Positions 40,029-54,968 are shown, counted from the stretch's first letter. The stretch: 64,000 bases of DNA from Candidatus Magasanikbacteria bacterium RIFOXYC2_FULL_42_28 (GCA_001784435.1 MFQZ01000001.1:16032-80031), one strand, 5' to 3'. Notes: generated from the letters alone by a model not told the origin. Translations and numbers: made by a program.

Positions 40029-40370
40029 TAAAAAAGAAAGCAAATGCTTTCTTTTTTAATGTGTCGCAGTCACTGAACGACGTGCGAACCTTTTTTGAAA
40101 AAAATATTATTGGCCAATAATCGAGTTTCCGCGCCCCGTCCGGCGGACGGGGCAACAAACAAGTTTGTTTTTTTCTGAAAGAAAAAGCGGAAACCGTGAA
40201 CCCGTTTGCCCCGACCAAGTCGTGGCAAAATTGTTCGCGACAAGCCCCCCCCCTGTCCGTTTGTGTTGAAAATTACTTTTTGCCTACCACCGCCAGAGGC
40301 GGGCAGGCGTATCGGGCGGGCGTGTCTGAGTGGCTGGTGGGTGGATATTAGTATTTAAATACTAATACGC
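40029..40370. repeat. Left copy of ~340-bp inverted repeat (IR-L) bounding accessory island; begins with hairpin aaaaaagaaagcaaatgctttctttttt
   Basis: ~88% identical to reverse complement of 54624-54968; contains conserved hairpins (ccccgtcc-ggcg-ggacgggg; ccgcc-aga-ggcgg) and ends inward with palindrome tattagtatttaaatactaata. Confidence 0.85.
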
Positions 40371-40376
40371 ATTTTT

Positions 40377-40781
40377 TTAAAACTTATACCACTTTTTACG
40401 ATTACACTTCTGACACGCTAATTGTAGATTTTTTATATGGTTTGATCCGTAACTTTCTGACGGTACTTTTTTCAGCTTTCCATTTTGCATCATTGGTCTC
40501 ATCTTCCGCAAACTCTTACTTAATTGATTGCTCGCCACCGGAATAATATGATCTATCTGCTGACCTTTGGTAATTTTACAAATCTCGCAAATACCCCCTG
40601 AACGCTTTAAAAGTATTTGCAATAATTTTGGTTTTAACAAATTATATTCTTGTCTTTTAATCGCCGAACTGCGAAAATCAAAATAATCACAGTACTTGCT
40701 CCCCAATAATTTTTCGTCACCGCCGGTCAATTTATCGGCAAAATATTTTTTATCTGCCTTATATTTAAAATGTAAAGGCAT
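40377..40781 (-). CDS. HNH endonuclease
   Basis: CEIC...DHIIP...N...N...CQKCNRKK HNH zinc-finger nuclease motif. Confidence 0.75.
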   Translation of the reverse strand: MPLHFKYKADKKYFADKLTGGDEKLLGSKYCDYFDFRSSAIKRQEYNLLKPKLLQILLKRSGGICEICKITKGQQIDHIIPVASNQLSKSLRKMRPMMQNGKLKKVPSESYGSNHIKNLQLACQKCNRKKWYKF

Positions 40782-40791
40782 AATTTATAAT

Positions 40792-40965
40792 TTATTTTTT
40801 CCAATCCCTAACCACAAACCCACCACGCGTCTTTTTCACCGTCACTTTTTGTTTTTCTTTCCACCCCAACACGCGCAAAATTTCAATTGGAATAGTGACG
40901 GAAAAACTATCCCCTATTTTGATTATTTTTCTGATTTCTTGTTTGTTTAATTTTTGGAGTGGCAT
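40792..40965 (-). CDS. AbrB/MazE/SpoVT-type swapped-hairpin DNA-binding protein (57 aa)
   Basis: Manual translation MPLQKLNKQEIRKIIKIGDSFSVTIPIEILRVLGWKEKQKVTVKKTRGGFVVRDWKK; IGDSxxVTIP motif typical of AbrB/MazE fold; 10 nt upstream of HNH gene. Confidence 0.55.
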   Translation of the reverse strand: MPLQKLNKQEIRKIIKIGDSFSVTIPIEILRVLGWKEKQKVTVKKTRGGFVVRDWKK

Positions 40966-40999: not shown

Positions 41000-41365
41000 T
41001 CAAAATTTTGACGCCTTTGCGAATTTTTTGGTTATAACCCAGTTTAAGCCAGCACCTAACCCCCAACCGACAAGGCCAATTAAAATAGGGAAATAAATAT
41101 GTAATCGTTCAAAATAAATTTCAAATAACGCCGCCGGCAAAAGTCCGAACAAAATCCAAAGATATTTATTTTTATCACCAAAAATGGTAAAAATAAAAAT
41201 TAGAAAAAAAATGTAGGCAAGTGGTAGACCAATTAGAACAGTCATATCAACATACCCGCCAATATGAAAAAAACTATCATAAAATTCCCCGACACTATAC
41301 GAACTAAAATAAGCCAAAACCAACACCGCCGTCAACAATAAAATATTTTTAACTACTTTATTCAT
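41000..41365 (-). CDS. Small membrane protein (4 TM), unknown function
   Basis: 121 aa, four hydrophobic helices. Confidence 0.4.
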   Translation of the reverse strand: MNKVVKNILLLTAVLVLAYFSSYSVGEFYDSFFHIGGYVDMTVLIGLPLAYIFFLIFIFTIFGDKNKYLWILFGLLPAALFEIYFERLHIYFPILIGLVGWGLGAGLNWVITKKFAKASKF

Positions 41366-41374
41366 AAATTTAAA

Positions 41375-43789
41375 TTAATTATTTAATAACCAGTTAAGAT
41401 CTTCTAATAGCACGGCATAGGCCGGAGCGGTAATGGCTTTGTCGCGTTTGTTCGTTAATTCTCTTAAAAAGTTTAGCCCTAAAATTTTGTCAATCCTTTG
41501 GGTCAACCTTTCAATTCTTTCCGCTCGTCTAGGGGCGGGAAATTTTGGTGGTTTGGCTTTGATGGTTTCAATTATCATTTCCAAACGAATGGCGTTTTTT
41601 AATTTGTTTATTAAACTATTTTTGGTGGACAAATTTTTTATCCAGCCCAAAATAAACATTTTTTCAATGTCGGCAATAGTACTGGACGGGGTGGCGATTA
41701 GTTGATAAATGATCGTAGCCGTGGCGGTATTGCCGGCGAAATCAGTGGCGGTAGCGAAAAAAATATGGTTGCCTAATTTTTGGGTGAACAAATCAATTGG
41801 CTCGCCCACGACTACTATTTTACCATCTAACGACCAAACCTGCGACTGGATGCCAGAGTCGGCGTCGGTGCTGGAAACGGAAACTGCCAAACTGTCCACG
41901 CGAGTATAATTCTGTGCCAAAGGCGAATTAATAGTTACTATTGGCGAAATAGTATCTCCAGCTGGTTTTACTTCTAAAACAGACGGCTCGGCATTGTCTA
42001 CTATAAACTCCAAATCGGCAATTTCGTCTGACAAAATTGTGCTTTGGTAATTACTACTTACGGATTGGCTATCGCTGACATAACTAGCGACAATCGTGTA
42101 TTCTCCGCCATCACCGGTACCTTGGGCTTGAATTTTATATTCGCCATCCAGTGGGTTTGGAACGGTAATGTATTCGTTGTCTGTAGCAAAACCAGAATAA
42201 AAAGCACCTTCAATTTCGTTGAATTCTTCGCCGGTATTAAAGTCCTTACCTACGCGCTTACCGTCCGGGGCGATGACGACAATGTCGGCTGGGGAGAGGA
42301 TTTTGATGAGGAGAATTTTGACATTGGGAAAATAAGAATGATTAACTTCAACCGGATCGTTAATATCTGATAGCTGACCTATGATTATTTTTTCCGCCTC
42401 GGTTGGTAAATTTCTATGCCCAGAATTATAAACAACCGTGCGTAAATCATTATTGTAGGCACTAACATATCTACTACTGCGCAGAGGAACCGTATCATCT
42501 CCATCGCCTAATTCCAACCCCAAATCAGCGGTTGTACCATCATATCCATCAGGGAATCCATCTTCCCACACTGGCTTAATAGGTGAATCAACTACCCGAA
42601 TCGTGTTTATGGTGTTACTTGTGTCTAAATTACCAACGATATTAAAAATTGAAACGCCGGAATTAAATAATCGATCAATATTAGCGTTTAACTCTTCTAA
42701 AAACGGATTAACCGGATAATTATTGGGATATGCACGCATTTGGCCGGTGCTTTTGTCTTTTAAATAATCATAAATCGGTAACAATTCTTGGGCTGATGCT
42801 ATTGGTTCACGATGAACATAATCAAAAATATCCATATAGCCGGATTTTTTAGCTTCTCTTGAAAAAAATGATTCTTTTAGGTTGTCTTCTATATTAACTC
42901 CAAACTCCTCCGCCTCCCAAGTTAAATACGATGCTGGTGCCCCCAAATGCGGCGTCCCTAAAAATATCAATTGGTCGACATCTTGAATATAATCATCAGA
43001 TTGGATATATTGCCGCGCGACTAATCCACCCATAGAGTGTCCGACCAAATCCACTTTATCGCACTGGCAATTTTCTTTTACCTCATCAATTTTTTCTTTT
43101 AATTGAAAAGCCGTGTCCACATTGGACTGGCGCCACTCATATGGGAAAGTAAATAAATCATAGCCGAGGCGATAACCATTAGCCACGAAAGTATCCACCA
43201 AATTATCATAGGTATGAAAAATAGGATCAATCACCCACTCACCATTTTTTTGTTCGCTTCCCATAACGCCGGGAATAATAATAACCGGATCGCTTTTTAC
43301 ATTTACTTCGTATTCGCCACTCGCGGGCAAGCGCGCGCTATTGCCAAAACTGTCGGTGGTTTCAAAATGAAACGAATAATGTCCGCGTACGAGAGTGGGA
43401 GATGATGTAAAAATATATTCTATGCCACCATAATAACCACAATTTAAATAATTTTCTTCGCCATTGGGACCAAAACCTAACCAACACTGATCCGCACTGG
43501 CGTTTCTGATCATTGGATAAGAGGCACCATCAATAACGACATTGATATCCAGCGGCGCGTCGTTGTCTTGGTCGGTATAAATCATTTTAAAATCCGGCAC
43601 GGAAGAAATATACCAAGAATATGGCTGCTCATCGATATAAAGATTGGCTTGGTCGTAGGTATGCGACAGGGTTGGTGGTTGATTGTCGGGGATTATAATG
43701 GCCGCCTGTATGACCAATGGCGCGAATAAAAACGCAACAAAAAAAGCCACGGAAATCATGACCTTTTTTGACCAAAAATTATGGTTCAT
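41375..43789 (-). CDS. Secreted alpha/beta-hydrolase lipase (GxSxG) with C-terminal Ig-like/Big-type domains
   Basis: Signal peptide MISVAFFVAFLFAPLVIQA; PGVMGS and VGHSMGGLVARQY lipase-class-2/PGAP1-like motifs; C-terminal beta-rich repeats (SVSSTDADSG...). Confidence 0.6.
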   Translation of the reverse strand: MNHNFWSKKVMISVAFFVAFLFAPLVIQAAIIIPDNQPPTLSHTYDQANLYIDEQPYSWYISSVPDFKMIYTDQDNDAPLDINVVIDGASYPMIRNASADQCWLGFGPNGEENYLNCGYYGGIEYIFTSSPTLVRGHYSFHFETTDSFGNSARLPASGEYEVNVKSDPVIIIPGVMGSEQKNGEWVIDPIFHTYDNLVDTFVANGYRLGYDLFTFPYEWRQSNVDTAFQLKEKIDEVKENCQCDKVDLVGHSMGGLVARQYIQSDDYIQDVDQLIFLGTPHLGAPASYLTWEAEEFGVNIEDNLKESFFSREAKKSGYMDIFDYVHREPIASAQELLPIYDYLKDKSTGQMRAYPNNYPVNPFLEELNANIDRLFNSGVSIFNIVGNLDTSNTINTIRVVDSPIKPVWEDGFPDGYDGTTADLGLELGDGDDTVPLRSSRYVSAYNNDLRTVVYNSGHRNLPTEAEKIIIGQLSDINDPVEVNHSYFPNVKILLIKILSPADIVVIAPDGKRVGKDFNTGEEFNEIEGAFYSGFATDNEYITVPNPLDGEYKIQAQGTGDGGEYTIVASYVSDSQSVSSNYQSTILSDEIADLEFIVDNAEPSVLEVKPAGDTISPIVTINSPLAQNYTRVDSLAVSVSSTDADSGIQSQVWSLDGKIVVVGEPIDLFTQKLGNHIFFATATDFAGNTATATIIYQLIATPSSTIADIEKMFILGWIKNLSTKNSLINKLKNAIRLEMIIETIKAKPPKFPAPRRAERIERLTQRIDKILGLNFLRELTNKRDKAITAPAYAVLLEDLNWLLNN

Positions 43790-43835
43790 ATTTTTTCCCT
43801 CCTTTAAAAATAAAATTCAAATATAGTTTTGACGA

Positions 43836-44222
43836 TCACATACTCCCCAATTTCGCCTTAACAATTTTCACCACCGCGTCCGGCCGCACATCCACTTTGG
43901 AAATAAAATCAATCGCTCCCATCGCTACGCCCTTTTCTTTATTGCCGGCCACCCGTACATTGGACAATAGATACACGGGTATATTTTTTGTGGCCGGATT
44001 ACTTTTCATCTCCGCTAAAATATCAAAGCCACTTTTATTATCATCCAATTGCAAATCCAACAATAATAAATCCGGTTTTATTTCCGCAACCATTTTACGG
44101 CCACTGTCAAAAGTATCGGCCGTTATTAAATCCAATCCTTCCACTTTAAATTTCAGCACATACATATTGGTAATTATCGGCTCATCTTCAATTAACAATA
44201 TTTTTACTTTTTTATTGTTCAT
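43836..44222 (-). CDS. Single-domain response regulator (CheY-like receiver)
   Basis: KILLIEDEP...DLLLLDLQL...K receiver motifs with phospho-acceptor Asp. Confidence 0.75.
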   Translation of the reverse strand: MNNKKVKILLIEDEPIITNMYVLKFKVEGLDLITADTFDSGRKMVAEIKPDLLLLDLQLDDNKSGFDILAEMKSNPATKNIPVYLLSNVRVAGNKEKGVAMGAIDFISKVDVRPDAVVKIVKAKLGSM

Positions 44223-44252
44223 ATTTTTTTAAAATAAAAATTAAACGCTTTT

Positions 44253-46058
44253 TTATTTTTTGGCCAAAATTTCCAAGGCCTTGGTCTCGGGTATAACCGG
44301 AATAGCCGGGATAGTAACGGTAAAAGTAGTACCCTTATCCACCCCCGCACTTTCAAGTGTAATCGCGCCATTATGCGCTTTCACAATTTTTCGCGCGATA
44401 AACAACCCCAAACCAGAACCATCCGGATGCACTAACATCGCCCGTTTGGCGCGTTGGAATTTTTGGAATAAATTGCGTTCCTCTTCTTCGCTTACGCCAA
44501 TACCGGTGTCTTTTATTTCAAATACAACATTCTCGCCACTACCATAAACACGCACGGTCGCCCCGCCTTTTTCCGTGTATTGGCAAGCATCATCAATTAA
44601 ATTCATAAATACTTGCAAAAGTAAAGTTGGATCAGCGGGGAAATACGGCGTGAGTTTCTCAGGCGCAATATATTTTAAATATAATTCTTTTTTGTCATAA
44701 TTCGGTTTAAGAGTGTTAATGGCTTCGGCGACTAACTTTTCCACATTAACCGGTACCAATTTTAACGATAACCCCATTTCTGCTTCCATCGCGTCCATTA
44801 AATCGGCGACGATATTCTTCAGACGGTCGGCCGAAATTAACATATTATTCTGCTGTTCTTTTTGTTCTTTGTCCGATAATTTCTCAAAATCGCCGTCGGC
44901 TTGCATTGACAATAAACCAATCATCGCGGACAATGGCGTGCGTAATTGATGCGAGGCAATATCCAAAAATTCGCTTTTTTGTTTGTCTAATTCTTTTAAA
45001 CTGACATTGGCCGTGTCCAATTGATTATTGCTCACTTCCAAAGATTCGGCCAGTCCTTTGAGCGCGGAATTTTTTTCTTTTAAATTTAAATTGGCGTCGT
45101 CTAATTTAAGGTTGGTGCGTTTCAGATCATTGGCAAGTTTGGCCATTTCTTCGCGAGCTTGAATTTCTTTTTTGACAGAACGAACAAGGAAATAGCCGAG
45201 CGTTGTCACTAAAATAAAAGTAAACACAACAACCACACGGACATTTTCTATCCGTCTGATAAATAAAATTGACAGCACTAAAAAGCCAAGTGCGGAAACT
45301 AACGCCTGAGTGCCAAACATTTTAACATTAAATGCGTTAAATTTAACGATAATATAGGCAAGGAAAGCAACAAATACCGGAGCACCGAAGAGGCCATATT
45401 GACCCAGTGTCCAATCTGCGGTAATACTTTGAACCAAATTGCCCCAAGAAAAAGCCAAAAGAAATAAAGAAATCCCCGAAACAATAAGCAATATCTGTTT
45501 CCTAAATTCTTTATCCGCCTTTATATATTTGGCCACAGAAAATATTAACATCCAAATTATAAAAATAAATTCTATAATATAGCCATACTGAACAAGTGCG
45601 CCCTCAATCGCTGCCCTATCGCAGTTAGTGTGGTCAAAGGCGGATACGCCCAAACTGGTCGGGGCGAGTAATACCATCGGCAAAAGCATTAAAGCAATTA
45701 TAATTTTATTTTTAAAATTTATATCTTTTTTATTTATAAATACATAAACAAAATAAAGACAGCCAGCGTAAATTAACGGCTCTATTAGTACTTCCAAAGC
45801 CCAAAATACCATTATCAATTCCGGCTTTTCGCTCGCCCACAAAACTAGGTCGGCATATACCCAAAAAGAAAAAACTGCCAAGATAAAAAATAGTGCTTGA
45901 TTAATTAGTGATTTTTTATCTTTAAGTAAAATAAAAAAACCGATAATCACAGAAAAGATTAGTGGCAGAAGGTGGGAATAGTAAACAAAGCTTCCAAAAA
46001 CATTCGCGGAAATAATTAAAAACTTTGCATTGTCCCAATTGCAAGATAAATAATCCAT
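44253..46058 (-). CDS. Sensor histidine kinase with N-terminal ~7-TM sensing domain
   Basis: H-box HQLRTPLSAM, N/G1/G2 HATPase boxes (DTGIGV, GSGLGL); long polytopic N-terminus. Confidence 0.8.
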   Translation of the reverse strand: MDYLSCNWDNAKFLIISANVFGSFVYYSHLLPLIFSVIIGFFILLKDKKSLINQALFFILAVFSFWVYADLVLWASEKPELIMVFWALEVLIEPLIYAGCLYFVYVFINKKDINFKNKIIIALMLLPMVLLAPTSLGVSAFDHTNCDRAAIEGALVQYGYIIEFIFIIWMLIFSVAKYIKADKEFRKQILLIVSGISLFLLAFSWGNLVQSITADWTLGQYGLFGAPVFVAFLAYIIVKFNAFNVKMFGTQALVSALGFLVLSILFIRRIENVRVVVVFTFILVTTLGYFLVRSVKKEIQAREEMAKLANDLKRTNLKLDDANLNLKEKNSALKGLAESLEVSNNQLDTANVSLKELDKQKSEFLDIASHQLRTPLSAMIGLLSMQADGDFEKLSDKEQKEQQNNMLISADRLKNIVADLMDAMEAEMGLSLKLVPVNVEKLVAEAINTLKPNYDKKELYLKYIAPEKLTPYFPADPTLLLQVFMNLIDDACQYTEKGGATVRVYGSGENVVFEIKDTGIGVSEEEERNLFQKFQRAKRAMLVHPDGSGLGLFIARKIVKAHNGAITLESAGVDKGTTFTVTIPAIPVIPETKALEILAKK

Positions 46059-46088
46059 AAAATAATTGCTTAAATAAATAGTGCTAAT

Positions 46089-46634
46089 TTATTTAGTGGG
46101 TTGTGCACGCTTGTTGGCATGATGCCTATGATAAGCAGTTTGAAAAAATTTTGGAATGTGTGGCAAATAATTGTCAAAAAAAGATTTCGGTAAAAATTGA
46201 ACCGATCTAACTACTTTTCTGCACCTATCGCTTTTGCAAAGACAACGCATATACCATAACTTCTCACTTTCAATGGTAGAATAATCAAGCGTAATTTCCT
46301 CACCCTGTTTGATGTGCTTTAGAGCCACCACAGTAACTGTGCCCTTAATAGCAGAATTGGGGTGGCAAGAATGGTTTAAATATTTAAATGGCACTGCCGG
46401 ATCTATCCACAAATTCTTTTTTATACCTATCCAGTCTTCACCATACATTGCCGTCTTCATGTCTTTAACCACCCAATGAACAAGTTCGCCTTTAATTATT
46501 GCCACTGTCTCACCCTTTTTAATATCTTTAGAGGCAAAAAGGCCAAACCCGTCAATACGGCTCTTAGATATATAAATTTTTTTATGTTTAAAATTTGTTC
46601 TATCCATACACGATTTATAAAATATGACATCCAA
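46089..46634 (-). CDS. SET-domain protein-lysine methyltransferase with post-SET Cys cluster
   Basis: NHSCHPN, EEITLDY, post-SET CLCKSDRC motifs. Confidence 0.7.
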   Translation of the reverse strand: MDVIFYKSCMDRTNFKHKKIYISKSRIDGFGLFASKDIKKGETVAIIKGELVHWVVKDMKTAMYGEDWIGIKKNLWIDPAVPFKYLNHSCHPNSAIKGTVTVVALKHIKQGEEITLDYSTIESEKLWYMRCLCKSDRCRKVVRSVQFLPKSFFDNYLPHIPKFFQTAYHRHHANKRAQPTK

Positions 46635-46654
46635 ATGAATAATAATTCAACCAA

Positions 46655-47032
46655 TTATCCAAATCTATAAAGCAAAGCCAGCGAAAATAATCCGGCGACT
46701 ATTCCAGCAATCTCGTAAGCATTTAAGCGTTCATTAAAAAATAATACGCCAACTATAACCAGTGCCAAAATCGTCGTAACTCCGTAGATAACACCGAGCG
46801 TGCCTAACTTAATATTTTTCATTACAAAAAACCACCCTACTGCAGTTAAAGAATATACCACAAAACCAATTATAAATAATTTATAATCAATATACTTGGT
46901 TTTATCATCGCCCGATAATTTGATAAAATAATCACCCAAAACGCCAACCAAACTTAAAGCGATAACTAATAAAAACGCATAAAAATAACTCATAAAATCA
47001 TCTAAAAAAATAATGACTACGGGGATGCGCAC
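46655..47032 (-). CDS. Small multidrug-resistance/DMT-like 4-TM transporter
   Basis: 125 aa, four TM helices, size/topology of SMR/EamA half-transporters. Confidence 0.45.
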   Translation of the reverse strand: MRIPVVIIFLDDFMSYFYAFLLVIALSLVGVLGDYFIKLSGDDKTKYIDYKLFIIGFVVYSLTAVGWFFVMKNIKLGTLGVIYGVTTILALVIVGVLFFNERLNAYEIAGIVAGLFSLALLYRFG

Positions 47033-47477: not shown

Positions 47478-47503
47478 ATGATTTAAATATATATTTAAAT
47501 CAT
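47478..47503. promoter_or_regulatory. Perfect 26-nt palindrome ATGATTTAAATATATATTTAAATCAT
   Basis: Core ATTTAAATATATATTTAAAT identical to sites at 16525-16544 and 54624-54643; lies between two island genes upstream of the Cys-rich gene. Confidence 0.45.
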
Positions 47504-47506
47504 GAT

Positions 47507-47983
47507 TTAATTTTTGCCTTCAAAATCAATTAATATCTGTAAATAACGCTTTTGTAGTTCAATATTGGCATACTCTGCTGGAAACATTGAAATTTTACCA
47601 CCGTTGTTAATAATATCGTCAATGCCGTCAAAATAAAACCCGTCCAATGTGGCAATAAACAAATAAGACGGATTCCACGATTTACTCATTCGCACGGCGT
47701 CTTCTAAAACATATTTTAAATTTAAATTACGCATATATTTTACCTCAACCAGCTGAACTTTTTTTGTTTTCTGATTGATAACTGCGAAATCTGGTGCTGT
47801 TCGTAGCGTCTCAATAATGTCGTTATTTTTCTTATCGTGTCCTTGTTGGACTAATTCAGGAATTATTTTTTCATAACCAAATTCCAAAACCGTAAAATCT
47901 TTGGTTTCGCGCAACATTTGCGCGAAGATTGTCTCGGCAATTTTACCTTTGACTAAATTTCTGGCAAAAGTTATGTTGCTCAT
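47507..47983 (-). CDS. Small putative PD-(D/E)XK-fold nuclease-like protein
   Basis: Pattern GKIAE...PDFAV...VQLVEVKY resembling the D...(E/Q)xK core of Hjc/Mrr-like nucleases; inference only. Confidence 0.3.
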   Translation of the reverse strand: MSNITFARNLVKGKIAETIFAQMLRETKDFTVLEFGYEKIIPELVQQGHDKKNNDIIETLRTAPDFAVINQKTKKVQLVEVKYMRNLNLKYVLEDAVRMSKSWNPSYLFIATLDGFYFDGIDDIINNGGKISMFPAEYANIELQKRYLQILIDFEGKN

Positions 47984-47986
47984 AAG

Positions 47987-50900
47987 TTATTCAATTACTT
48001 TTTTTAATTCCCAAAAACGATTGCTGCCTTTTACTAACAACTCATTAATTAAATTAACAACACCGTCTTTAGTTTGTGAATTTTTATACAATGTTTTTAA
48101 TGCCGTTGTGATACTATCGCCATAAAGAGAATAAGCAAAATAACCAGGCCCAGCGACCACTTGTTGCATCAAATAAAGCTCCAAAATTATTAAAGTGTCT
48201 TCCGGCGCGGCATTGGCAAAATCCGGCAATCTATTGATGACGCCATGTTCCCATTCAATGTCGCCGTTACTTTTTTCCAACGATTGTTTAAAGTGCAAAA
48301 CCAACCATTTTAAATCTGTAAACAATCTTTGTTTTTCTCCAACCCAAAAACCAAAATAAGCAAAAATTTCATTTTCGCCGTCAATGGGGTTTGCCAAAAT
48401 CCAATCCCACAGGTTACTTAATTTCCCCCTAATAACATCCGCGTTAATTTTATTAACCAACATAAATTCAGCCGGATCATCACGGGATATGAAATGTCGC
48501 CCAATATACGATACGAACTCGCCGTGGCGTTTTTGTCCGGCTGTGTCCCAAAACAATTTAAATATTGGTGAATTAAAATCAAAATTACCATAATGAACAT
48601 AAGCCAAAGCCAAATGAATAGCCAGCCCTTCATCTAATTCTTTGGAATAATGACGCTTGGTATATTCGTTACTTGGCATTTCAATCAAGCGTTTATAAAT
48701 ATTACTCAAATCATCAAATAATTCTTCATACAAATCAGCAGTTAAATAACCCTCAACCGCGGCCAAAAATAAATCCTTTTTTGCTAGCGCAGACGAAAAT
48801 ATTTTGGGAATCATCTTTTTCATCCATTCTTTATCACGATAATAAAAAGTCGGAAGATAACGACCAAATAAAAACATTACCGCGCGAGTATTTTCTATTT
48901 CTAAAATTTGCTCATAAATCTTTTTAACATCTTCGCTAATCTTGGCTATATCTTCTTTGGTAAAATTATTTTTCCCGTCCAAATACACAAATAATGCCAA
49001 CGATTCAAACGCGCGGCCACGGACAGAATTAATAGCGTGAGTGAACGGATCACTGCCGTTTTCAACATTCTCACTTTCTGGATCAGGGTCAGAATGGCGG
49101 AGTAAATATGAAATTATAGCAAGGATCCGTTTCCTATTCTTTTTGAAATCAATCAATTGACCGCTATGTTTACCTGATAAGATAATTTTTAATAACTCGG
49201 AAATTTCACCATGCACGCCCGCCCAATCGACCAACCATGTGCTACCAAGCTCTGCCCTGCCTTTACGCACGCTTAAAAATTGTGTTAGCGCAGAAGAACT
49301 TTTGATAACATCAAACAAATCTAATAGTTTTTCCAAATCGAGGCCGCCACTATACTCGTCTTGACGAATAACTGCTTCAATGCCGTGTAAAAATGAATAG
49401 GTATAATGCTGATCTAAAATATCTCTCTGAAAAAATAAATTAGCATTATCAAGATATGCCCCCGGTCTTTTGGCAATATCCTGCACGAGCATATTGCCCA
49501 TACCGTCGGCACTTAGTGGATTTAAAAAATTCCGTTCTCCATCTTTTTTATATAAACTCTCCGGCGACCATTCCGATAATAATTTATCCACCATCGTTGA
49601 TATTTCCATTTTATTCAACTCCGGCAAATCTATCGGAGCACGCGGTCTGACCATTCCGCCAGTAACAGGTCCGTATCCTGCAATAGGTTCAAATTTTTGA
49701 TCTAATTCTTTGTCAAAAATTTGTTTCGCCATATTTTTTTTCACATCTGTCAAATTATCAAATATACTAGACAGGATTTCCCAGCCATCACTTTTATACA
49801 TTGTTTCATCTTTTTTATCTGTCCGCTCTTTACCGAAATAATTAAAAACCTGCTTAACGTATTCTTCTTTGTCTGTTTTGTCTAAATCAAAAAAGCATTT
49901 ATTTAAGGCATGACAATATTCTGGACTATACAACTCATAATATTTTTCTTCATCAGCGAATATATCAAAAAAAGCTTTTTTCAATTCATCTTTAAACACT
50001 TCCGGACACAAGCTCCATATAAAAAGACGGAAACGATAAAACGATTGAGTATTTGGCAAATTTTTTATATACAAACCATGCAATCTTTGGGCATCGTCGC
50101 ATTTTCCATTGAATAAGGACTTCGCTAATTTGGTAATTGTCGCTGCTAAATCGTGTACATTATCACGCAATGAAAGATGGGCTTTGATATTTAAATCAAG
50201 CACAAAAAAATCAACATCAAACAGATAATAATTTTCTTTGGCATCAAAATATTTACTATCTGATCTGCCGGAAGAAACTGCAATATCTTTTAAAATATTC
50301 AAAAGTAATTTAAATGTCCGCTCTACATAATCGTCGTCTATCAAACTAAGATAATTAAATACTTTTGTATGCTCTAAATCGTTAATATAAAAAGGATTAT
50401 CAGAAAAATTATTGGTTTTATCTCGTTCGGCTTGGCTACGAATTGTTAGCACCGCCTCGGCCAATTCTAACAATCCGCTGTATTCTTTTGCTACAGACAA
50501 TTCTTTGAGTATTTCTTCATATTCAAATCCCCACCGACTAAACGGTGCCAACAGTTTCACCCATTCATTATTCTTTATCATTCCTGTTAATTTTACAATT
50601 TGCGCAGCTGGTAATTTGGAACAAATATGCAAAAAAATATCAACTACTTCCGGATTAAAATTTTTGACCGACATGCTGACAGTCAAAATTATATCCGCGA
50701 CTTTTTCTGGATTATTTTCTGCCATTCGCTCTAAATATCCTAACTCTGGTAAGGAATATGAATATCTAGTTGGATCTGCAGATTTTTGTTTTATAGCGTT
50801 TAAAAAACCGCCATTCCACAACCAGTCAAGCCAACGTTCGTCGGCTTTTGTAAAAAAATATCTATATGCGTCCGAATTAAAAGATAAAATTAAAAAAACT

Positions 50901-51532
50901 CTATCAGCATCAACAAAAAGCGGATCGCAGACAAGAATCCTATCAATTATATTATGAATTGAAATTTGTTGAGGCAGCAATACACACCAAACATTTGTCA
51001 AAATAACAACCAATTTTTTAAAATGAGTGTAGCCAAATTTTGACACATCATAAAGTTCAACTTGTAAATTGTTAATTTTCTTAATAAAATCACTATGTTT
51101 CGACGAATCTCTAAAGTGGTGCGCAATTTGTGTAAAAATAAAATATAAGTCATTCAGAGTAGTAGCAATCTCATCTATCTGCTCCTCGTTGCTATCGATT
51201 TTATTTTCGGCAATTATTTTTTTCAAAAAATCTTTTCTATGCATCTCTCGACTTTCTTTTGGCAGATTGATAATATCATTTTTATACTGATAGAGAATTT
51301 CTCTTAATGAGTGGGCAGCTTGTGATAGATAATCTGGGTTCTTGGAACGATTATTATCGTTTAGTAAAAAAATAGCACCTCTATACAAAATAGATGGTGC
51401 GATAGCAGGACAAAAAATACTGACCCTATTCAGTTTATCCAAATATGATACCAACCACTCGATTTTTTCTTTAGGAATAAAATCTCCACGATCAGAAATA
51501 GCGTCCTTTAATTCGCTGTTCATAATTACCAC
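47987..51532 (-). CDS. Large uncharacterised protein (1181 aa), no recognisable motifs
   Basis: Long uninterrupted ORF tightly packed (3-nt gap) with downstream nuclease-like gene and 63 nt after putative REase; no Walker A/helicase/DDE motifs seen. Confidence 0.5.
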   Translation of the reverse strand: MVIMNSELKDAISDRGDFIPKEKIEWLVSYLDKLNRVSIFCPAIAPSILYRGAIFLLNDNNRSKNPDYLSQAAHSLREILYQYKNDIINLPKESREMHRKDFLKKIIAENKIDSNEEQIDEIATTLNDLYFIFTQIAHHFRDSSKHSDFIKKINNLQVELYDVSKFGYTHFKKLVVILTNVWCVLLPQQISIHNIIDRILVCDPLFVDADRVFLILSFNSDAYRYFFTKADERWLDWLWNGGFLNAIKQKSADPTRYSYSLPELGYLERMAENNPEKVADIILTVSMSVKNFNPEVVDIFLHICSKLPAAQIVKLTGMIKNNEWVKLLAPFSRWGFEYEEILKELSVAKEYSGLLELAEAVLTIRSQAERDKTNNFSDNPFYINDLEHTKVFNYLSLIDDDYVERTFKLLLNILKDIAVSSGRSDSKYFDAKENYYLFDVDFFVLDLNIKAHLSLRDNVHDLAATITKLAKSLFNGKCDDAQRLHGLYIKNLPNTQSFYRFRLFIWSLCPEVFKDELKKAFFDIFADEEKYYELYSPEYCHALNKCFFDLDKTDKEEYVKQVFNYFGKERTDKKDETMYKSDGWEILSSIFDNLTDVKKNMAKQIFDKELDQKFEPIAGYGPVTGGMVRPRAPIDLPELNKMEISTMVDKLLSEWSPESLYKKDGERNFLNPLSADGMGNMLVQDIAKRPGAYLDNANLFFQRDILDQHYTYSFLHGIEAVIRQDEYSGGLDLEKLLDLFDVIKSSSALTQFLSVRKGRAELGSTWLVDWAGVHGEISELLKIILSGKHSGQLIDFKKNRKRILAIISYLLRHSDPDPESENVENGSDPFTHAINSVRGRAFESLALFVYLDGKNNFTKEDIAKISEDVKKIYEQILEIENTRAVMFLFGRYLPTFYYRDKEWMKKMIPKIFSSALAKKDLFLAAVEGYLTADLYEELFDDLSNIYKRLIEMPSNEYTKRHYSKELDEGLAIHLALAYVHYGNFDFNSPIFKLFWDTAGQKRHGEFVSYIGRHFISRDDPAEFMLVNKINADVIRGKLSNLWDWILANPIDGENEIFAYFGFWVGEKQRLFTDLKWLVLHFKQSLEKSNGDIEWEHGVINRLPDFANAAPEDTLIILELYLMQQVVAGPGYFAYSLYGDSITTALKTLYKNSQTKDGVVNLINELLVKGSNRFWELKKVIE

Positions 51533-51595: not shown

Positions 51596-52654
51596 TTACC
51601 AACTGCCAGCTGTCTTAAGTTTAAAATAGCCCCGCTCTTTAATAAAAGGCAATAGCTCAGAATTAGACGGGAACTCTAAATTAAATTCTCTCTCAACGTC
51701 TCTTAGTAAAAACTTACCGAGATTATTCCTGTATTTATCACTTAAACAAATTTTATACCACTGATCCAGATCGTTCATGGTAATAATGCCTTGAATTTTT
51801 TCGCCCCAGCCCACTTGGGATAATAAGTTTTCTATCGCGGTTTTTTCAGAATCAACACAAACTACCACTATCCTATCGGCGGCAATTCCAGTGGCCACAT
51901 CTTCTATAATTTCAGGTGTCAACGTCAAATGTTTTACCTGGACAGCCAAACCAAAATTAGCCCACATATCCAAACCCCTGTCAGCAGCATTGGCCACGCC
52001 AGCCCTATATAAAGCCGCCGGCAATGTTATTTTGGTATTTTTAGCATCAATTCCCAAAACCATTTTAATAAAAGGCTCAAAATCTTGAAGAAGCTGCTTA
52101 TTGTCATTTAAAATTTCCAAAGTTATTTGCGCGCGCAATGCCCTAACAATTGTAGAAAATAGGGCATAAACTAAAATCTCATAAATTTTATCCGTGCTTC
52201 TTTTTAATCCAGGATCTAAAACAAAAAAATTGACTAACTTTTTTAAATCAAAAGTTGAAGCCGTTGACTTGCTAACATATAAATTCACATCGTGCACAGA
52301 AGACAATCTGGTGTTAAGGGCGTTGTAAATATAGGCCTCCACCAATCCACTTTCCCGTTTATTAAAATTCCCTAAATCACGCAATAAACTTGGCGGTATT
52401 GCGTTAATCTCAAAAATGTTATCCTGAAATTTTTGGCTTGACGTGCAAACTCTGCCGACCAAACGACCAGAAACCTCATCTCGCCATTTTTTTGAAACAT
52501 TGCGATAAGATTCCAAATCAAGAAGAACCCAACGTCTTTTGTCCGTTCTATGGTGAAATAAAATTTCAGCAATTTGAATTGGTTTGTACAAATGAACGCG
52601 TGATTTGCGTATTATTGTATCAAGCGCATTTTTTGCGATATTAATTTTAGGCAT
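51596..52654 (-). CDS. Putative type II restriction endonuclease (context-based)
   Basis: 352-aa ORF overlapping the 3' end of the C5-methyltransferase gene by 8 nt, typical R-M operon arrangement; possible D...QVK catalytic core (DMWANFGLAVQVKH). Confidence 0.35.
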   Translation of the reverse strand: MPKINIAKNALDTIIRKSRVHLYKPIQIAEILFHHRTDKRRWVLLDLESYRNVSKKWRDEVSGRLVGRVCTSSQKFQDNIFEINAIPPSLLRDLGNFNKRESGLVEAYIYNALNTRLSSVHDVNLYVSKSTASTFDLKKLVNFFVLDPGLKRSTDKIYEILVYALFSTIVRALRAQITLEILNDNKQLLQDFEPFIKMVLGIDAKNTKITLPAALYRAGVANAADRGLDMWANFGLAVQVKHLTLTPEIIEDVATGIAADRIVVVCVDSEKTAIENLLSQVGWGEKIQGIITMNDLDQWYKICLSDKYRNNLGKFLLRDVEREFNLEFPSNSELLPFIKERGYFKLKTAGSW

Positions 52655-54422
52655 ACACTCTTTCTTTTTTTATAATTAATGAGTCAATTTTAGAAGATTC
52701 TCTTACTGGCATTTTTTTCATTGCTTCTACCATCGCGCGAGCAACCGCTTGAATTTTTGGAACGACAACGCTATTACCGGCCTGCTTCCGCGCTTGTGTA
52801 TCAGGAACAACAATACGAAAAGTATCTGGAAAACCTTGGAGACGCAACAGCTCTCTTGGTGTCAAACGTCTTTCCCCATTAACTGTCAGATAATTATAAG
52901 AACCGTTGGCTCTTAAGGCACACGAGTATGGGTGCATTCCGATATTACCACCCTTATTTTCATGCCAGACAGACGGCTTTGGTGCCGGCACTTTCCCCTG
53001 CTCTACCAACCTCTTCTGCAATTTTTGTTTAAAACTTTCACTCAAATAATGTTTTTTATCTATCTGACTTTTTGGTTCCAAAATATCAGATAGCGTTTTC
53101 GTCTCTGAAACACCCGTGGGAAACTCAAAAGGATAATTTTCCTTGAAACCAACTATGATTATACGCTCTCTTTTCTGCGGGACACCAAAGTCAAGACCGT
53201 TGAGAACATTAAAGTGAACAAAGTATCCCAAACTTTTCAAAGATTCTATAATTATTTTAAATGTGCGCCCATCATCATGCGAAGTTAATTGTTTAACATT
53301 CTCCAACAAAAAAGCTTTCGGCTGTTTGGCTTTTAATATTCTTTCAACATCAAAAAATAAAGTGCCGCGAGTATCAGCGAACCCTCGTTTTTTGCCAATT
53401 ATACTAAACGCTTGGCAGGGAAAACCGCCGGTGAGGATATCGTGATCAGGTATTTCGTCCGCAGAAATTTTTGTTATATCTCCGTGTGGTTTATCCCCAA
53501 AATTTGCTTCATACATAACTTGACACGGCTCATCAAATTCGGATGTAAATACACACTTGCCGCCATTGCGTTCAAAAGCAATTCTGACACCGCCGATGCC
53601 AGCGAATAAATCTATAAAACGAAATGAGTTATTGTCGGTTGAAAAATCATCATTCAAATTACTTTTATAAAAATATGCTCGTCTTGTGTCTGTAAGTAGA
53701 CTAAACAAAGAAACTTGCAAACCTTCCGCGACATACTCGGCATTAACAAATTCTGTATTATTTATTTCAGCTAATACGCTATGTGCGTGGTCTTTTGACA
53801 CTATAATAAAATCATCAACATTAACACCCATTAATTGTCCGGCCTCGGCAATTCTTTTAACTACCTGCTTGTCTTCATCACTTGGACTCACATCACCGGA
53901 AGGGTGATTATGAATAACAATCACGCTCGCGGCTCGAAGTTCTATCGCCAGTGCAAAAATTTCGCGAGGGTGAACAATATTTTTATCAAGCGTCCCAATA
54001 AAAATTGTTTCTTTCTTTATCAATGCTTTGCGCGCATTTAAATACAAACAAACAAGATGTTCTTGTTTTTTATCTTTCAAATCGGCGACTAATTTAACCG
54101 CATCTTTTGCAGATAGAACCAAATCATCGGGAGCATTTTGTCTGTCATTAAGTCTTTTTGCAAGTGCCACCATGGAAAGAATCTGTAAGGCCTTTGCCTG
54201 TCCGATTCCGTGAATCTTCATTAAATCTTCAACCGAGACATTTATCAAATTATCACCAAACTTTTTAAGAATTTTTTGCGCCAAAACTTTAACGTTAACA
54301 TTTTTGGTGCCGCTTCCAAGTTGAATAGCTAAAAGTTCACCATCGGTTAAGGCATCTGGTCCTTTTTCTAAAAATTTTTCTCTGGGGCGGTCAAATTTTG
54401 GTGTATCTTTTAATTTTGTCAT
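52647..54422 (-). CDS. Fusion protein: RadC-like JAB/MPN domain (N-term) + DNA (cytosine-5)-methyltransferase (C-term)
   Basis: RadC HhH + JAMM motif VIVIHNHPSGDVSPSDED; C5-MTase motifs I FIDLFAGIGG, IV GFPCQAFS, VI ENV, VIII QKRERIIIVG, X GNSVVVP; single uninterrupted 591-aa ORF. Confidence 0.8.
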   Translation of the reverse strand: MTKLKDTPKFDRPREKFLEKGPDALTDGELLAIQLGSGTKNVNVKVLAQKILKKFGDNLINVSVEDLMKIHGIGQAKALQILSMVALAKRLNDRQNAPDDLVLSAKDAVKLVADLKDKKQEHLVCLYLNARKALIKKETIFIGTLDKNIVHPREIFALAIELRAASVIVIHNHPSGDVSPSDEDKQVVKRIAEAGQLMGVNVDDFIIVSKDHAHSVLAEINNTEFVNAEYVAEGLQVSLFSLLTDTRRAYFYKSNLNDDFSTDNNSFRFIDLFAGIGGVRIAFERNGGKCVFTSEFDEPCQVMYEANFGDKPHGDITKISADEIPDHDILTGGFPCQAFSIIGKKRGFADTRGTLFFDVERILKAKQPKAFLLENVKQLTSHDDGRTFKIIIESLKSLGYFVHFNVLNGLDFGVPQKRERIIIVGFKENYPFEFPTGVSETKTLSDILEPKSQIDKKHYLSESFKQKLQKRLVEQGKVPAPKPSVWHENKGGNIGMHPYSCALRANGSYNYLTVNGERRLTPRELLRLQGFPDTFRIVVPDTQARKQAGNSVVVPKIQAVARAMVEAMKKMPVRESSKIDSLIIKKERVYA

Positions 54423-54623
54423 AATTTAAAAAACCTGCCAATGCTTATAAAAATCTACAATGCATATGCCGACCGTTTGTGGCCATTTAGTCGGTGAGTG
54501 TAATTTGGTACCCAGACGATAATATTCTACCACAATTCGCCAAACCAATCAACAACGAAGGGATGATTGCTTTTGACCAATTAGTTGCGTTAATTGAGAT
54601 AATAAACCGCAATAATTTATCCT

Positions 54624-54968
54624 AATTTAAATATATATTTAAATACTAATACGCCCCACACACCGCCCACCCAAACAAGCCCGCCCAATACACCCACCCG
54701 CCTCTGGCGGGGACAAGCAAAAAGTAATTTTCAATACAAACGGACAGGGGGGGCTGGTCGCGGACAATTTGCCACGACTTGGTCGGGGCAAACGGGTTCG
54801 CGGTTTCCGCTTTTTCTTTCAGAAAAAAACAAACTTGTTTGTTCGCCAGTCCGCTGGACTGGCAGGCGGAAACTCGATTGCTGGCCAATAATATTTTTTT
54901 CAAAAAAGGTTCGCACGTCGTTCAGTGACTGCGACAAAACAAAAAAGAAAGTGGGTGCTTTCTTTTTT
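54624..54968. repeat. Right copy of ~340-bp inverted repeat (IR-R); inner end is the 28-nt AT palindrome string, outer end hairpin aaaaaagaaagtgggtgctttctttttt
   Basis: Reverse complement aligns with 40029-40370; hairpin maintained by compensatory pairs (gccagtcc-agcg-ggactggc vs ccccgtcc-ggcg-ggacgggg). Confidence 0.85.

What the first reader, a model, noticed from the sequence alone, without database searches (positions are those of the whole stretch)
40029..54968. 14.9-kb accessory island at tRNA-Pro bounded by ~340-bp diverged inverted repeats, with no recognisable recombinase
Directly after tRNA-Pro(CGG) (39951-40023) a ~340-bp sequence (40029-40370) reappears as its reverse complement at 54624-54968 (~88% identity). 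The 14.25 kb between the two copies is entirely minus-strand, tightly packed cargo: an AbrB-like/HNH pair, a membrane protein, a large lipase, a histidine kinase plus receiver, a SET-domain protein, a small transporter, a Cys-rich protein, a nuclease-like protein, an 1181-aa unknown protein, a putative REase and a RadC::C5-MTase fusion. No integrase, transposase or tRNA-3' direct repeat is visible, so the mobilisation mechanism is unexplained. Possibilities are IR-mediated inversion, a novel transposition system, or the IRs acting as independent elements.
Basis: seen in the sequence. Interest (0 to 1): 0.8.

Follow-up and report, generated by a model that had tools for sequence, protein, structure and literature searches.

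The report
Inverted-repeat-bounded defence island beside tRNA-Pro
A 14.9-kb block of foreign-looking defence and accessory genes in a Candidatus Magasanikbacteria genome is bracketed by two inverted copies of a conserved ~300-bp non-coding module; the same module pair brackets a different defence island beside another tRNA in a second metagenomic contig, next to a large serine recombinase, so this is probably a recombinase-less member of an undescribed mobile-island family.

Summary
A tRNA-Pro(CGG) gene is followed by a ~340-bp sequence that recurs inverted 14.3 kb away at 88-90% identity. There are only two copies in the window, and independent assemblies confirm the arrangement. The interior is all minus-strand, low in GC and GCGC, and contains no recombinase.

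A metagenome scan found the same module (84-87% identical) as a 100%-identical inverted pair in JGI contig Ga0265296_1000972. There it brackets a ~13-kb island with unrelated cargo (Type I R-M, GmrSD, a PD-(D/E)XK nuclease). That island has the same layout: a methylase-first operon at one end and a 95%-identical AbrB/MazE antitoxin plus toxin at the other. It lies beside tRNA-Glu. A large serine recombinase gene sits between the tRNA and the module, flanked by perfect 137-bp inverted repeats that start and stop at a TA. The module ends carry TA-centred dyad-symmetric sites.

Best reading (about 0.5): the repeats are conserved ends of a serine-recombinase-associated island family, and the window copy has lost its recombinase.

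The island is a mosaic, because close relatives carry sub-modules in other contexts. What the hairpin-rich core does is unresolved, and evidence that it works as an RNA is inconclusive. No empty site or excision junction was found.

The parts
39951..40024 (+). tRNA-Pro(CGG); the island begins at its 3' end
   Evidence: ARAGORN; Rfam tRNA, 72.9 bits
40021..40066 (.). 46-bp perfect palindrome CGACACATTAAAAAAGAAAGC-AAAT-GCTTTCTTTTTTAATGTGTCG between the tRNA and the module. It looks like a terminator. It occupies the same position as the serine-recombinase cassette of the second instance and shares that cassette's terminal heptamers CGACACA / TGTGTCG.
   Evidence: Sequence; self-match in BLAST; comparison with L032
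40030..40370 (+). Left copy of the repeated module, read inward. It consists of a conserved terminus TCACTGAACGAC (40070-40081), a hairpin-rich core to ~40226, a G-rich variable part to ~40344 and an AT palindrome at 40347-40366.
40377..40965 (-). AbrB/MazE-like antitoxin (40792-40965, 57 aa) followed by an HNH nuclease (40377-40781, 134 aa). This is a toxin-antitoxin-like pair at the tRNA-proximal end. The antitoxin is 95% identical in protein to the one at the matching end of the second island.
41000..47385 (-). Accessory genes: membrane protein, LCAT/PGAP1 lipase, receiver domain protein, histidine kinase, SET-domain protein, EamA-like transporter and Cys-rich protein. Their codon usage is closer to the host's than that of the right-hand part.
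47481..47506 (.). 26-nt perfect AT palindrome ATGATTTAAATATATATTTAAATCAT at a module junction. A 99%-identical relative (L102) diverges from the window about here.
   Evidence: (I6)
47507..51532 (-). 1181-aa all-alpha solenoid protein plus a 158-aa protein: a two-gene module of unknown function from a large uncharacterised family
51596..54422 (-). Type II restriction-modification system: RadC::C5-methyltransferase fusion (52647-54422) and HaeII-family endonuclease (51596-52654)
   Evidence: The cassette is 68% identical in nucleotides to a viral contig.
54624..54968 (-). Right copy of the module, read inward. Its inner end carries the palindrome ATTTAAATATATATTTAAAT (54625-54644) ~200 bp upstream of the methylase start. 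Its conserved terminus TCACTGAACGAC is at 54928-54917.
54933..54975 (.). Outer hairpin of the right copy, homologous to the left one (same A6GAAAG stem, different loop). It is the only terminator-like site after glnII.
54993..56003 (-). glnII (type II glutamine synthetase), the right-hand flank. GC is 0.50, and its neighbourhood is not conserved even in a relative with 90% identical GlnII.

Best explanation
The 14.9-kb region is a horizontally acquired, mosaic defence and accessory island. Its two ~300-bp inverted repeats are the conserved terminal modules of an undescribed island family in Patescibacteria.

Family layout: tRNA gene; module reading inward; a methylase-first array of co-directional defence genes; an AbrB/MazE antitoxin plus a toxin; module reading inward from the other side.

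In the one other member found, a large serine recombinase gene lies between the tRNA and the first module. The recombinase cassette and the island are each flanked by a TA dinucleotide. Both have related termini (YCAC-N3-ACAAC). The outer ends of the modules form TA-centred dyad-symmetric sites of the size that serine recombinases use.

Inference: the family moves, or once moved, by serine-recombinase strand exchange at these ends, as Tn4451 and SCC elements do. The window copy has lost the recombinase. In its place is a 46-bp palindrome with the same terminal heptamers, and the central TA is missing from both ends. So this copy is probably immobile, or mobilisable only in trans.

Shown: the repeats, the second instance, its recombinase, its TA-flanked nested repeats, the foreign composition and the mosaic structure.

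Inferred: that the recombinase acts on these ends, that the window palindrome is a relic of the cassette, and what the 170-nt hairpin-rich core does. It could bind accessory proteins or be transcribed.
For: 1. Second instance. JGI contig Ga0265296_1000972 carries two inverted copies, 100% identical over 314 bp. They are 87% and 84% identical to the window's left and right copies.
2. Same layout, different cargo. L032 holds the module followed by HsdM, HsdS, DUF3644, an Abi-like protein and the HsdR N-terminus. L015 holds the HsdR C-terminus, GmrSD, a PD-(D/E)XK nuclease, a 198-aa protein, AbrB (95% protein identity to the window's), a 186-aa protein and the module. That island is about 13 kb from repeat to repeat.
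3. Both islands abut tRNA genes, but different ones (Pro-CGG and Glu-TTC). The interior is oriented oppositely relative to the tRNA in the two cases.
4. A large serine recombinase (Resolvase + Recombinase + Zn_ribbon_recom domains) lies between tRNA-Glu and the module. It is ~27% identical to phage serine integrases.
5. The recombinase is flanked by a 137-bp, 100% complementary inverted repeat whose arms begin and end at TA. Site 3 is a near-perfect palindrome with ~24-bp arms centred on TA.
6. Both islands are GCGC-poor relative to their flanks: window 2.7/kb against 7.5/kb; Ga interior 0.8-3.2/kb against 7.4/kb.
7. Identity is mosaic. In the core, left versus right is 92%. In the 3' part, the left copy is closer to the Ga copy (87%) than to its own partner (80%). 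The pair is therefore old and maintained, with conversion in the outer part.
8. The R-M cassette alone also occurs on a viral contig.
Against: - Only two instances are known, and no empty site, circular junction or excision product was seen.
- No recombinase lies in the 64-kb window (tblastn).
- Known large-serine-recombinase elements do not have long terminal inverted repeats, and 300 conserved bp is far more than a recombinase site needs.
- In the window the TA centre is absent, and there is no target duplication.
- The link between the window's 46-bp palindrome and the recombinase cassette rests on a shared 7-mer plus an 8-of-12 match in the half-site.
- The tRNA-side half-site in Ga does not resemble the other half-sites.
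- L101 shows AbrB-HNH without the module. L102 shows the 1181/158 pair in another context. The island therefore need not move as one unit.
- The 100% identity of the repeats in the Ga contig could partly reflect assembly consensus.
- No homologue of the module turned up in three k-mer scans of GTDB species representatives and JGI metagenomes (a fourth gave the single Ga contig), four k-mer scans of IMG/VR, BLAST of phage and plasmid records, or a search for mis-called ORFs over the element in 5.8 billion proteins.
Confidence: 0.5

Rival explanations
1. The module is a structured non-coding RNA or a regulatory leader, not a recombination end. The upstream copy would supply the promoter and 5' leader of the methylase-first defence operon. 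The downstream copy, reading convergently into the toxin gene, would supply an antisense RNA or an insulator.
For: - Inward-strand folds are more stable than shuffles (z = -4.8 and -3.1).
- RNAalifold predicts 89 pairs on the inward strand and 73 on the other.
- One hairpin shows two compensatory pair changes between the window copies. A second hairpin keeps 7 bp in the Ga copy through U-A to C-G plus an indel (by eye).
- Eleven one-sided changes are G-U compatible on the inward strand.
- In L032 the module ends 47 bp before the hsdM start. In the window it ends ~200 bp before the methylase start. Both upstream copies share the inner extension TTAGGATAAATT.
- The inner AT palindrome recurs upstream of other operons.
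Against: - No Rfam family matches, even at E <= 10.
- Covariation is not significant with three distinct sequences: 161 of 500 shuffles reach the observed score.
- Structures predicted from one copy lose 12-19 pairs in the other.
- Local hairpins are strand-symmetric, so they fit DNA-level sites equally well.
- This reading does not explain why the module always comes as an inverted pair beside a tRNA and a recombinase.
Confidence: 0.2
2. The repeats bound an invertible segment. A serine recombinase encoded just outside, as gin and cin are, flips the whole island between sites at the outer ends of the repeats.
For: - In Ga the recombinase gene lies immediately outside one repeat.
- The repeat boundaries coincide with 12-2-12 dyad sites whose centre, TA, is palindromic and so gives no polarity.
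- The interior is oriented oppositely relative to the tRNA in the two genomes.
Against: - The enzyme is a ~520-aa integrase-type large serine recombinase, not a ~190-aa invertase.
- Because both ends are the same module, inversion would change nothing obvious about expression.
- Each independent assembly shows one orientation only.
- The window has no recombinase.
Confidence: 0.1
3. This is a composite or non-autonomous transposon. Two copies of a miniature element flank captured genes and are mobilised in trans by a DDE transposase encoded elsewhere. The TA flanks in Ga would suit an IS630/Tc1-like enzyme.
For: - In Ga both the island and the recombinase cassette are flanked by TA.
- R-M units flanked by long inverted repeats without a transposase have been described (Furuta et al. 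2010, PMC2853133).
- I recall MITE-flanked integron units (not looked up here).
Against: - The module has no terminal inverted repeats of its own.
- There are only two copies per locus and none elsewhere in the window.
- No DDE transposase is present in either locus.
- The window shows no target duplication.
Confidence: 0.1
4. The repeats have no function. They would be an old inverted segmental duplication of an intergenic region, and the genes between them would be ordinary variable chromosome.
For: - Gene order in these genomes is poorly conserved. A relative with 90% identical GlnII has entirely different neighbours.
- Codon usage in 41-46 kb is host-like.
Against: - The same pair recurs around different cargo in another genome at 84-87% identity.
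- The core is conserved far above the 3' part.
- Hairpins are kept through compensated changes.
- Both interiors are GCGC-poor relative to their flanks.
Confidence: 0.1

Closest known systems
Large-serine-recombinase mobile elements: Tn4451/Tn4453 (TnpX), Tn5397 (TndX) and SCC / pseudo-SCC cassettes (CcrAB). My account of these elements comes from memory, not from a test here.
   Same: - A large serine recombinase gene lies at one end of the element (in the Ga instance).
- The element is flanked by the same crossover dinucleotide on both sides (TA here, GA in Tn4451).
- The insertion site resembles the element's own ends.
- The cargo is variable.
- Recombinase-less derivatives exist, as pseudo-SCC elements do. 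The window copy would be the equivalent.
   Different: - Those elements have no long terminal inverted repeats. Here the repeats are 314-340 bp for the island and 137 bp for the recombinase cassette.
- The recombinase lies outside the island's repeat pair.
- The target is the 3' end of a tRNA gene.
- The host is a Patescibacterium.
- No circular form or empty site has been shown.
Restriction-modification units flanked by long inverted repeats with no transposase (Furuta, Abe and Kobayashi 2010, NAR; PMC2853133)
   Same: - Restriction-modification genes are bracketed by imperfect inverted repeats that are unique to the unit.
- No mobility gene lies inside.
- Those authors also proposed mobilisation in trans.
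   Different: - Their repeats are 26-65 bp with 8-bp target duplications, and the units hold little beyond the R-M genes.
- Here the repeats are ~300 bp and hairpin-rich, and no target duplication is seen in the window.
- The unit is 13-15 kb with many genes.
- A second member has different cargo, and a candidate recombinase is identified.
Serine-invertase segments (Mu G/gin, P1 C/cin with 0.6-kb inverted repeats), described from memory
   Same: - The recombinase gene lies just outside a segment bounded by inverted repeats.
- Dyad-symmetric ~26-bp sites with a 2-bp centre lie at the repeat boundary.
   Different: - The enzyme here is an integrase-type large serine recombinase.
- The segment is a whole defence island, not alternative tail-fibre exons.
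- Only one orientation is seen within each organism.
tRNA-integrated genomic islands with tyrosine integrases
   Same: - The island lies at the 3' end of a tRNA gene.
- The composition is foreign.
- The cargo includes defence and toxin-antitoxin genes.
   Different: - There is no tyrosine integrase.
- There is no direct repeat of the tRNA 3' end.
- The boundaries are inverted repeats, not direct ones.

Membership tests
Large-serine-recombinase integrative or transposable element (Tn4451/SCC type) | Encodes a large serine recombinase (Resolvase + Recombinase + zinc-ribbon domains) | tested here: not met
   None was found in the island or the 64-kb window (Pfam, NCBIfam, PHROGs and PADLOC scans; tblastn with the Ga recombinase). 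The feature is met only in the related locus L032.
Large-serine-recombinase integrative or transposable element (Tn4451/SCC type) | Identical 2-bp crossover dinucleotide on both sides, within dyad-symmetric sites | tested here: inconclusive
   It is present in the Ga contig: TA flanks both the cassette and the island, with 12-2-12 up to 24-2-24 dyads. In the window the terminus TCACTGAACGAC is conserved 9 of 12, but the TA is missing.
Large-serine-recombinase integrative or transposable element (Tn4451/SCC type) | Excised circular form or an empty target site in relatives | not testable with these tools
   No reads were available. No relative with a tRNA-Pro(CGG)|glnII junction was found.
Inverted-repeat-flanked R-M unit or non-autonomous terminal-repeat transposon | Imperfect terminal inverted repeats unique to the unit | tested here: met
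Inverted-repeat-flanked R-M unit or non-autonomous terminal-repeat transposon | Short direct target-site duplication outside the repeats | tested here: not met
   The flanks of the window repeats share no direct repeat. Only TA is seen, and only in the Ga contig.
tRNA-targeting tyrosine-integrase genomic island | Tyrosine integrase next to the tRNA, and a direct repeat of the tRNA 3' end at the far boundary | tested here: not met
   There is no integrase. The tRNA-Pro 3' 22-mer matches only the two tRNA-Pro genes at up to 3 mismatches.
Serine-invertase (Din-type) invertible segment | Both orientations present in a population, with a small invertase adjacent | not testable with these tools
   Each assembly shows one orientation. 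The adjacent enzyme in Ga is a ~520-aa integrase-type recombinase.
Known structured RNA family (Rfam 15) | Match to a curated covariance model | tested here: not met
   Only tRNAs pass the gathering threshold. Nothing relevant appears at E <= 10 on the left window copy and the Ga copy.
Novel structured RNA | Statistically supported covariation in a conserved fold | tested here: inconclusive
   With three distinct sequences, 95.5% of cells pair, but 161 of 500 shuffles reach the observed covariation score. One compensatory change is visible at column level and two more by eye.

The most novel reading that the evidence does not exclude
The ~300-bp hairpin-rich module would be a new kind of cis-element, possibly a transcribed structured RNA. 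It would define the ends of a serine-recombinase-driven carrier of defence cassettes in CPR bacteria. That carrier would be a terminal-repeat-bearing serine-recombinase transposon family in which an autonomous 1.9-kb recombinase cassette (137-bp perfect repeats, TA-flanked) mobilises large non-autonomous islands that have related termini.
Probability: 0.2. Interest if true: 0.8.

Novelty: new variant of a known kind. Interest (0 to 1): 0.6.

Why it matters
Very little is known about how the small-genome Patescibacteria (CPR) exchange defence systems, and few mobile elements have been described for them. The conserved pair of terminal modules frames interchangeable defence cargo: a Type II HaeII system plus unknown genes in one genome, and Type I R-M, GmrSD and nuclease genes in another. 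It lies beside tRNA genes and is linked to a large serine recombinase. Together these give a concrete, searchable signature for one such vehicle.

If the recombinase acts on the TA-centred sites, this would be a serine-recombinase element with long terminal inverted repeats, a combination I know of no precedent for. Its recombinase and sites might also be useful tools.

The 170-nt conserved hairpin core has no known counterpart. It is either a new protein-binding architecture or a new RNA.

Tried and rejected
- **Rfam.** Gathering threshold on the whole window, and E <= 10 on the left window copy and the Ga copy: nothing but tRNAs.
- **BLASTN of the module against phage and plasmid records:** no match.
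- **Exact k-mer scans that found nothing:**
  - a 22-mer and a tRNA-Pro 44-mer in GTDB representatives
  - a 20-mer in JGI metagenomes
  - four patterns in IMG/VR gave no exact match or only chance matches
- **Mis-called ORF search.** I joined all stop-free translations of both copies into one 1095-aa query and searched 5.8 billion predicted proteins, hoping for ORFs wrongly called over homologous elements. There were no hits at E <= 1.
- **Synteny through GlnII and acyltransferase homologues.** Relatives at 83-90% protein identity have unrelated neighbourhoods or contigs too short to help, so no empty site was found.
- **The 1181-aa protein as a hidden recombinase: rejected.** It has no Pfam, NCBIfam, PHROGs, PADLOC or PDB sequence hit. 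The AlphaFold model (pLDDT 86.5) is an all-alpha solenoid that resembles only CAND1 and karyopherins, at TM ~0.2.
- **Specific avoidance of HaeII sites: not established.** There is 1 site against 3.3 expected from the island's own pentamer counts. The deficit mainly reflects general GCGC depletion.
- **A globally conserved RNA fold: not supported.** Single-sequence structures lose 12-19 pairs in the other copy, and covariation is not significant.
- **Coding potential of the repeat: rejected.** Indels of 1-3 nt break every frame between the copies.

Full report
**1. The observation**

ARAGORN and Rfam place tRNA-Pro(CGG) at 39951-40024 on the plus strand. The repeat finder reports three collinear inverted blocks: 40030-40132/54866-54968, 40135-40229/54768-54862 and 40247-40344/54656-54753, at 91%, 94% and 85% complementarity. 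A gapped alignment gives 90% mean column identity, and BLAST gives 87.5% over 336 bp with E = 2e-115. Two core blocks each occur exactly twice in the window, against none in shuffles, and no third copy exists.

The host is a Candidatus Magasanikbacteria MAG from the Rifle aquifer, with NCBI locus tags A3J93_00845 onward. The arrangement is reproduced in an independent JGI assembly. Contig C687J26860_1000104 (57.3 kb) is 100% identical to window 39876-50965 over the 11 kb I could read. That stretch crosses the tRNA-Pro / left-repeat junction, and the contig's length implies that it runs through the right repeat as well. Logan unitigs break inside the repeats.

No recombinase of any class is detected. 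There is no partial tRNA-Pro copy at the far end.

**2. Is it an island?**

Composition says yes, though unevenly.
- GC is 0.370 inside and 0.411 / 0.420 outside.
- GCGC runs at 2.7/kb inside and 7.5 / 7.2 per kb outside.
- Tetranucleotide distance from the flanks peaks at 45-54 kb.
- HaeII sites (RGCGCY) number 60 in the window but only 1 in the island. Every other 14.9-kb window holds 10-17. The island's own pentamer counts predict only 3.3 sites, so this is mostly general GCGC depletion and not proven site avoidance.
- Codon usage and GC3 in the lipase and kinase genes (41-46 kb) are host-like. The 46-54.4 kb part has lower GC3.

Comparison with relatives gave no empty site. Genomes whose GlnII is 83-90% identical have unrelated neighbourhoods, and the closest acyltransferase relatives lie on very short contigs.

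Two fragments from relatives show that the island is a mosaic.
- L102 (ENA, 5.3 kb, 2.2x coverage) is 99% identical to window 47510-48581, which covers the end of the 1181-aa gene and the 158-aa gene. It then continues into tyrS and argS instead of the window's 47.5-40.4 kb genes. The breakpoint lies at the stop codon of the 158-aa gene, where the window has a 26-nt AT palindrome.
- L101 (Logan, 1.2 kb) is 85% identical to window 40353-41458 (129aa-AbrB-HNH). It has no module after HNH, and homology stops at the TTAGTATTTA motif.

The methylase and endonuclease pair also occurs on an IMG/VR contig, without the RadC domain, at 68% nucleotide identity.

**3. Anatomy of the repeat**

Read inward (left copy on the plus strand, right copy on the minus strand), each window copy has five parts:
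- An outer A6GAAAG hairpin. On the left it is a 46-bp perfect palindrome that starts inside the tRNA's last three bases. On the right it is the only terminator-like site after glnII.
- A terminus, TCACTGAACGAC.
- A ~170-nt core dense in hairpins: a stem GTTTCCGC/GCGGAAAC enclosing three hairpins, then TTTGCCCCGACCAAGTCGTGGCAAA.
- A G-rich ~115-nt part containing CCGCCAGAGGCGG.
- An AT-rich palindrome at the inner edge.

The window copies are 92% identical in the core and 80% identical in the G-rich part.

**4. The second instance**

Two k-mers found nothing in GTDB representatives or JGI metagenomes, and a tRNA-based scan also failed. The 18-mer CCCCGACCAAGTCGTGGC then returned 38 JGI stretches. 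Two of these, L015 and L032, both from contig Ga0265296_1000972 (36.3 kb), align to the whole module at 87% (left copy) and 84% (right copy). The other stretches share only the ~20 nt around the 18-mer itself.

The two copies in that contig are inverted and 100% identical over 314 bp.

L032 reads, in order:
- DnaE
- TsaD
- tRNA-Glu(TTC)
- a large serine recombinase on the minus strand
- the module, reading inward
- HsdM
- HsdS
- a DUF3644 protein
- an Abi_C-like protein
- the first 567 residues of HsdR, running off the end

L015 reads, in order:
- the last 469 residues of HsdR
- a 62-aa ORF
- GmrSD
- a PD-(D/E)XK nuclease
- a 198-aa protein
- an AbrB/MazE protein 95% identical to the window's
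- a 186-aa protein with an R-x4-H motif (seen by eye)
- the module, inverted
- 121 bp to the contig end

The two HsdR halves add up to about a full-length HsdR, so the loci are nearly adjacent and the island is about 13 kb from repeat to repeat. This estimate rests on typical HsdR length.

The layout therefore matches the window: module, methylase-first co-directional defence genes, AbrB plus a toxin-like gene, inverted module. The cargo is otherwise unrelated, because only AbrB gives a tblastn hit. The island abuts a different tRNA, and its interior is oriented oppositely relative to that tRNA. The Ga interior is also GCGC-poor: 0.8-3.2/kb against 7.4/kb in its flank. The two upstream-type copies (window right, L032) share an inner extension, TTAGGATAAATT.

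In the G-rich part, the window's left copy is closer to the Ga copy (87%) than to the window's right copy (80%). In the core, the two window copies are closest to each other (92%). I infer that the pair predates the split of the two elements and that the outer parts have been homogenised within the window.

**5. The recombinase lead**

The Ga recombinase has Resolvase, Recombinase and Zn_ribbon_recom domains. It is ~27% identical to phage large serine integrases. It is flanked by a 137-nt, 100% complementary inverted repeat at 3847-3983 and 5579-5715. The arms begin and end at a TA.
- Site 1: ...CCCCTTGGGGC TA CCACGACACAAC... (tRNA-Glu end, then cassette)
- Site 2: ...GTTGTGTCGTGG TA TCACTTTACAAC... 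(cassette, then module)
- Site 3, at the distal end of the island...GGATTTGGTTGTAAAGTGG TA TCACTTTACAACGAAATCC..., a near-perfect palindrome with ~24-bp arms

Both the 1.9-kb cassette and the island are therefore TA-flanked, and their termini are related (YCAC-N3-ACAAC). From memory, identical flanking dinucleotides and target sites that resemble the element's ends are hallmarks of Tn4451/TnpX-type serine-recombinase elements.

In the window, the space between tRNA-Pro and the module is the 46-bp palindrome. Its outermost and innermost heptamers (CGACACA / TGTGTCG) equal those of the Ga cassette arms. The adjoining half-site matches 8 of 12 positions, and the module terminus matches 9 of 12. 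The central TA is missing from both copies. tblastn finds no recombinase in the window.

My inference, at moderate to low confidence, is that the window palindromes are relics of such a cassette and that this island copy is immobile or depends on a recombinase acting in trans.

**6. RNA or DNA?**

Inward-strand folds are more stable than shuffles (z = -4.8 and -3.1). RNAalifold predicts more pairs on the inward strand than on the opposite strand (89 against 73).

One hairpin shows two compensated pair changes between the window copies: CCCCGTCC/GGACGGGG against GCCAGTCC/GGACTGGC. Another keeps 7 bp in the Ga copy: TTTTTCT/AGAAAAA against TTTTCCT/AGGAAAA (by eye).

Against this, single-sequence structures lose 12-19 pairs in the other copy. 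The three-sequence alignment gives a positive (penalising) covariation term. In the pair-count test, 161 of 500 shuffles reach the observed covariation score. No Rfam family matches. The hairpins are real and conserved, but whether they act in RNA, single-stranded DNA or duplex DNA is open.

**7. Other proteins**

The 1181-aa protein belongs to a large uncharacterised family: 1438 representative clusters at E <= 1e-3. It has no hits in any family library or among PDB sequences. Its model is a confident all-alpha solenoid (pLDDT 86.5) that resembles only HEAT-repeat proteins, at TM ~0.2. It is not a recombinase.

**8. Comparison with known systems, and verdict**

Three known systems come close.
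- Recombinase-less derivatives of large-serine-recombinase elements (pseudo-SCC, Tn4451-type).
- The R-M units flanked by long inverted repeats with no transposase, described by Furuta et al. 2010 (PMC2853133).
- Din-type invertible segments.

This case differs from all three. The terminal modules are 300 bp long and hairpin-rich. They are conserved across genomes around different cargo, and they are linked to a tRNA and to a recombinase cassette that has its own perfect 137-bp repeats.

I rate it a new variant of a known kind, with interest 0.6. The main weaknesses are that only two instances are known, that there is no empty site or junction evidence, and that the role of the core is unresolved.

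Noticed in passing
window 16525-16556, 47481-47506, 54625-54644; partial copy at 40964-40978: The 20-nt perfect palindrome ATTTAAATATATATTTAAAT occurs three times exactly. It lies upstream of operon starts and at module junctions: the inner edge of the right repeat, and the breakpoint with relative L102. Variants form the inner edge of every module copy, including a 32-nt perfect palindrome in L015. It could be a promoter or operator, or a recombination hotspot.
   Followed up: partly
window 33836-40024: A 6.2-kb plus-strand block is bracketed by two similar, directly oriented tRNA-Pro genes (GGG and CGG). It sits within an otherwise minus-strand window whose GC skew is negative nearly throughout. 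The block holds ATP-citrate-lyase-like genes, CorA, a GDSL lipase and an acyltransferase. A Logan contig covers only the stretch between the two tRNA genes. Its HaeII-site density is host-like.
   Followed up: partly
L032 3847-5715 (JGI contig Ga0265296_1000972): A 1.9-kb unit consists of a large serine recombinase gene flanked by perfect 137-bp inverted repeats and TA dinucleotides. The last ~45 codons of the gene lie inside one arm, and the ORF reads on into tRNA-Glu. It looks like an autonomous insertion cassette. I know of no described serine-recombinase element with such long perfect terminal repeats.
   Followed up: partly
window 52647-54422: A single 591-aa ORF fuses a RadC-like JAB domain (with UPF0758_N and HhH) to a C5 cytosine methyltransferase. 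The NCBI record lists only a 336-aa methyltransferase, and the viral homologue (L011, 76% identical) lacks the RadC part.
   Followed up: partly
window 47507-51532; L102 2-1051: The 1181-aa HEAT-like solenoid and the 158-aa protein travel together. In a 99%-identical relative they sit next to tyrS and argS. The solenoid belongs to a family of more than 1400 representative clusters with no annotation anywhere. The pair may be an uncharacterised two-gene defence module adjacent to the R-M system.
   Followed up: partly
window 54993-56003: glnII has GC 0.50 in a 0.41 genome. Its neighbours are completely different in relatives with 78-90% identical GlnII. This suggests that glnII is itself horizontally mobile or sits in a rearrangement hotspot.
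   Followed up: partly
L015 4821-5572 against window 40377-40965: The AbrB/MazE antitoxin is 95% identical between the two islands, but its partner differs: an HNH nuclease in the window and a 186-aa protein with an R-x4-H (HEPN-like) motif in L015. This looks like toxin swapping behind a conserved antitoxin and promoter.
   Followed up: no
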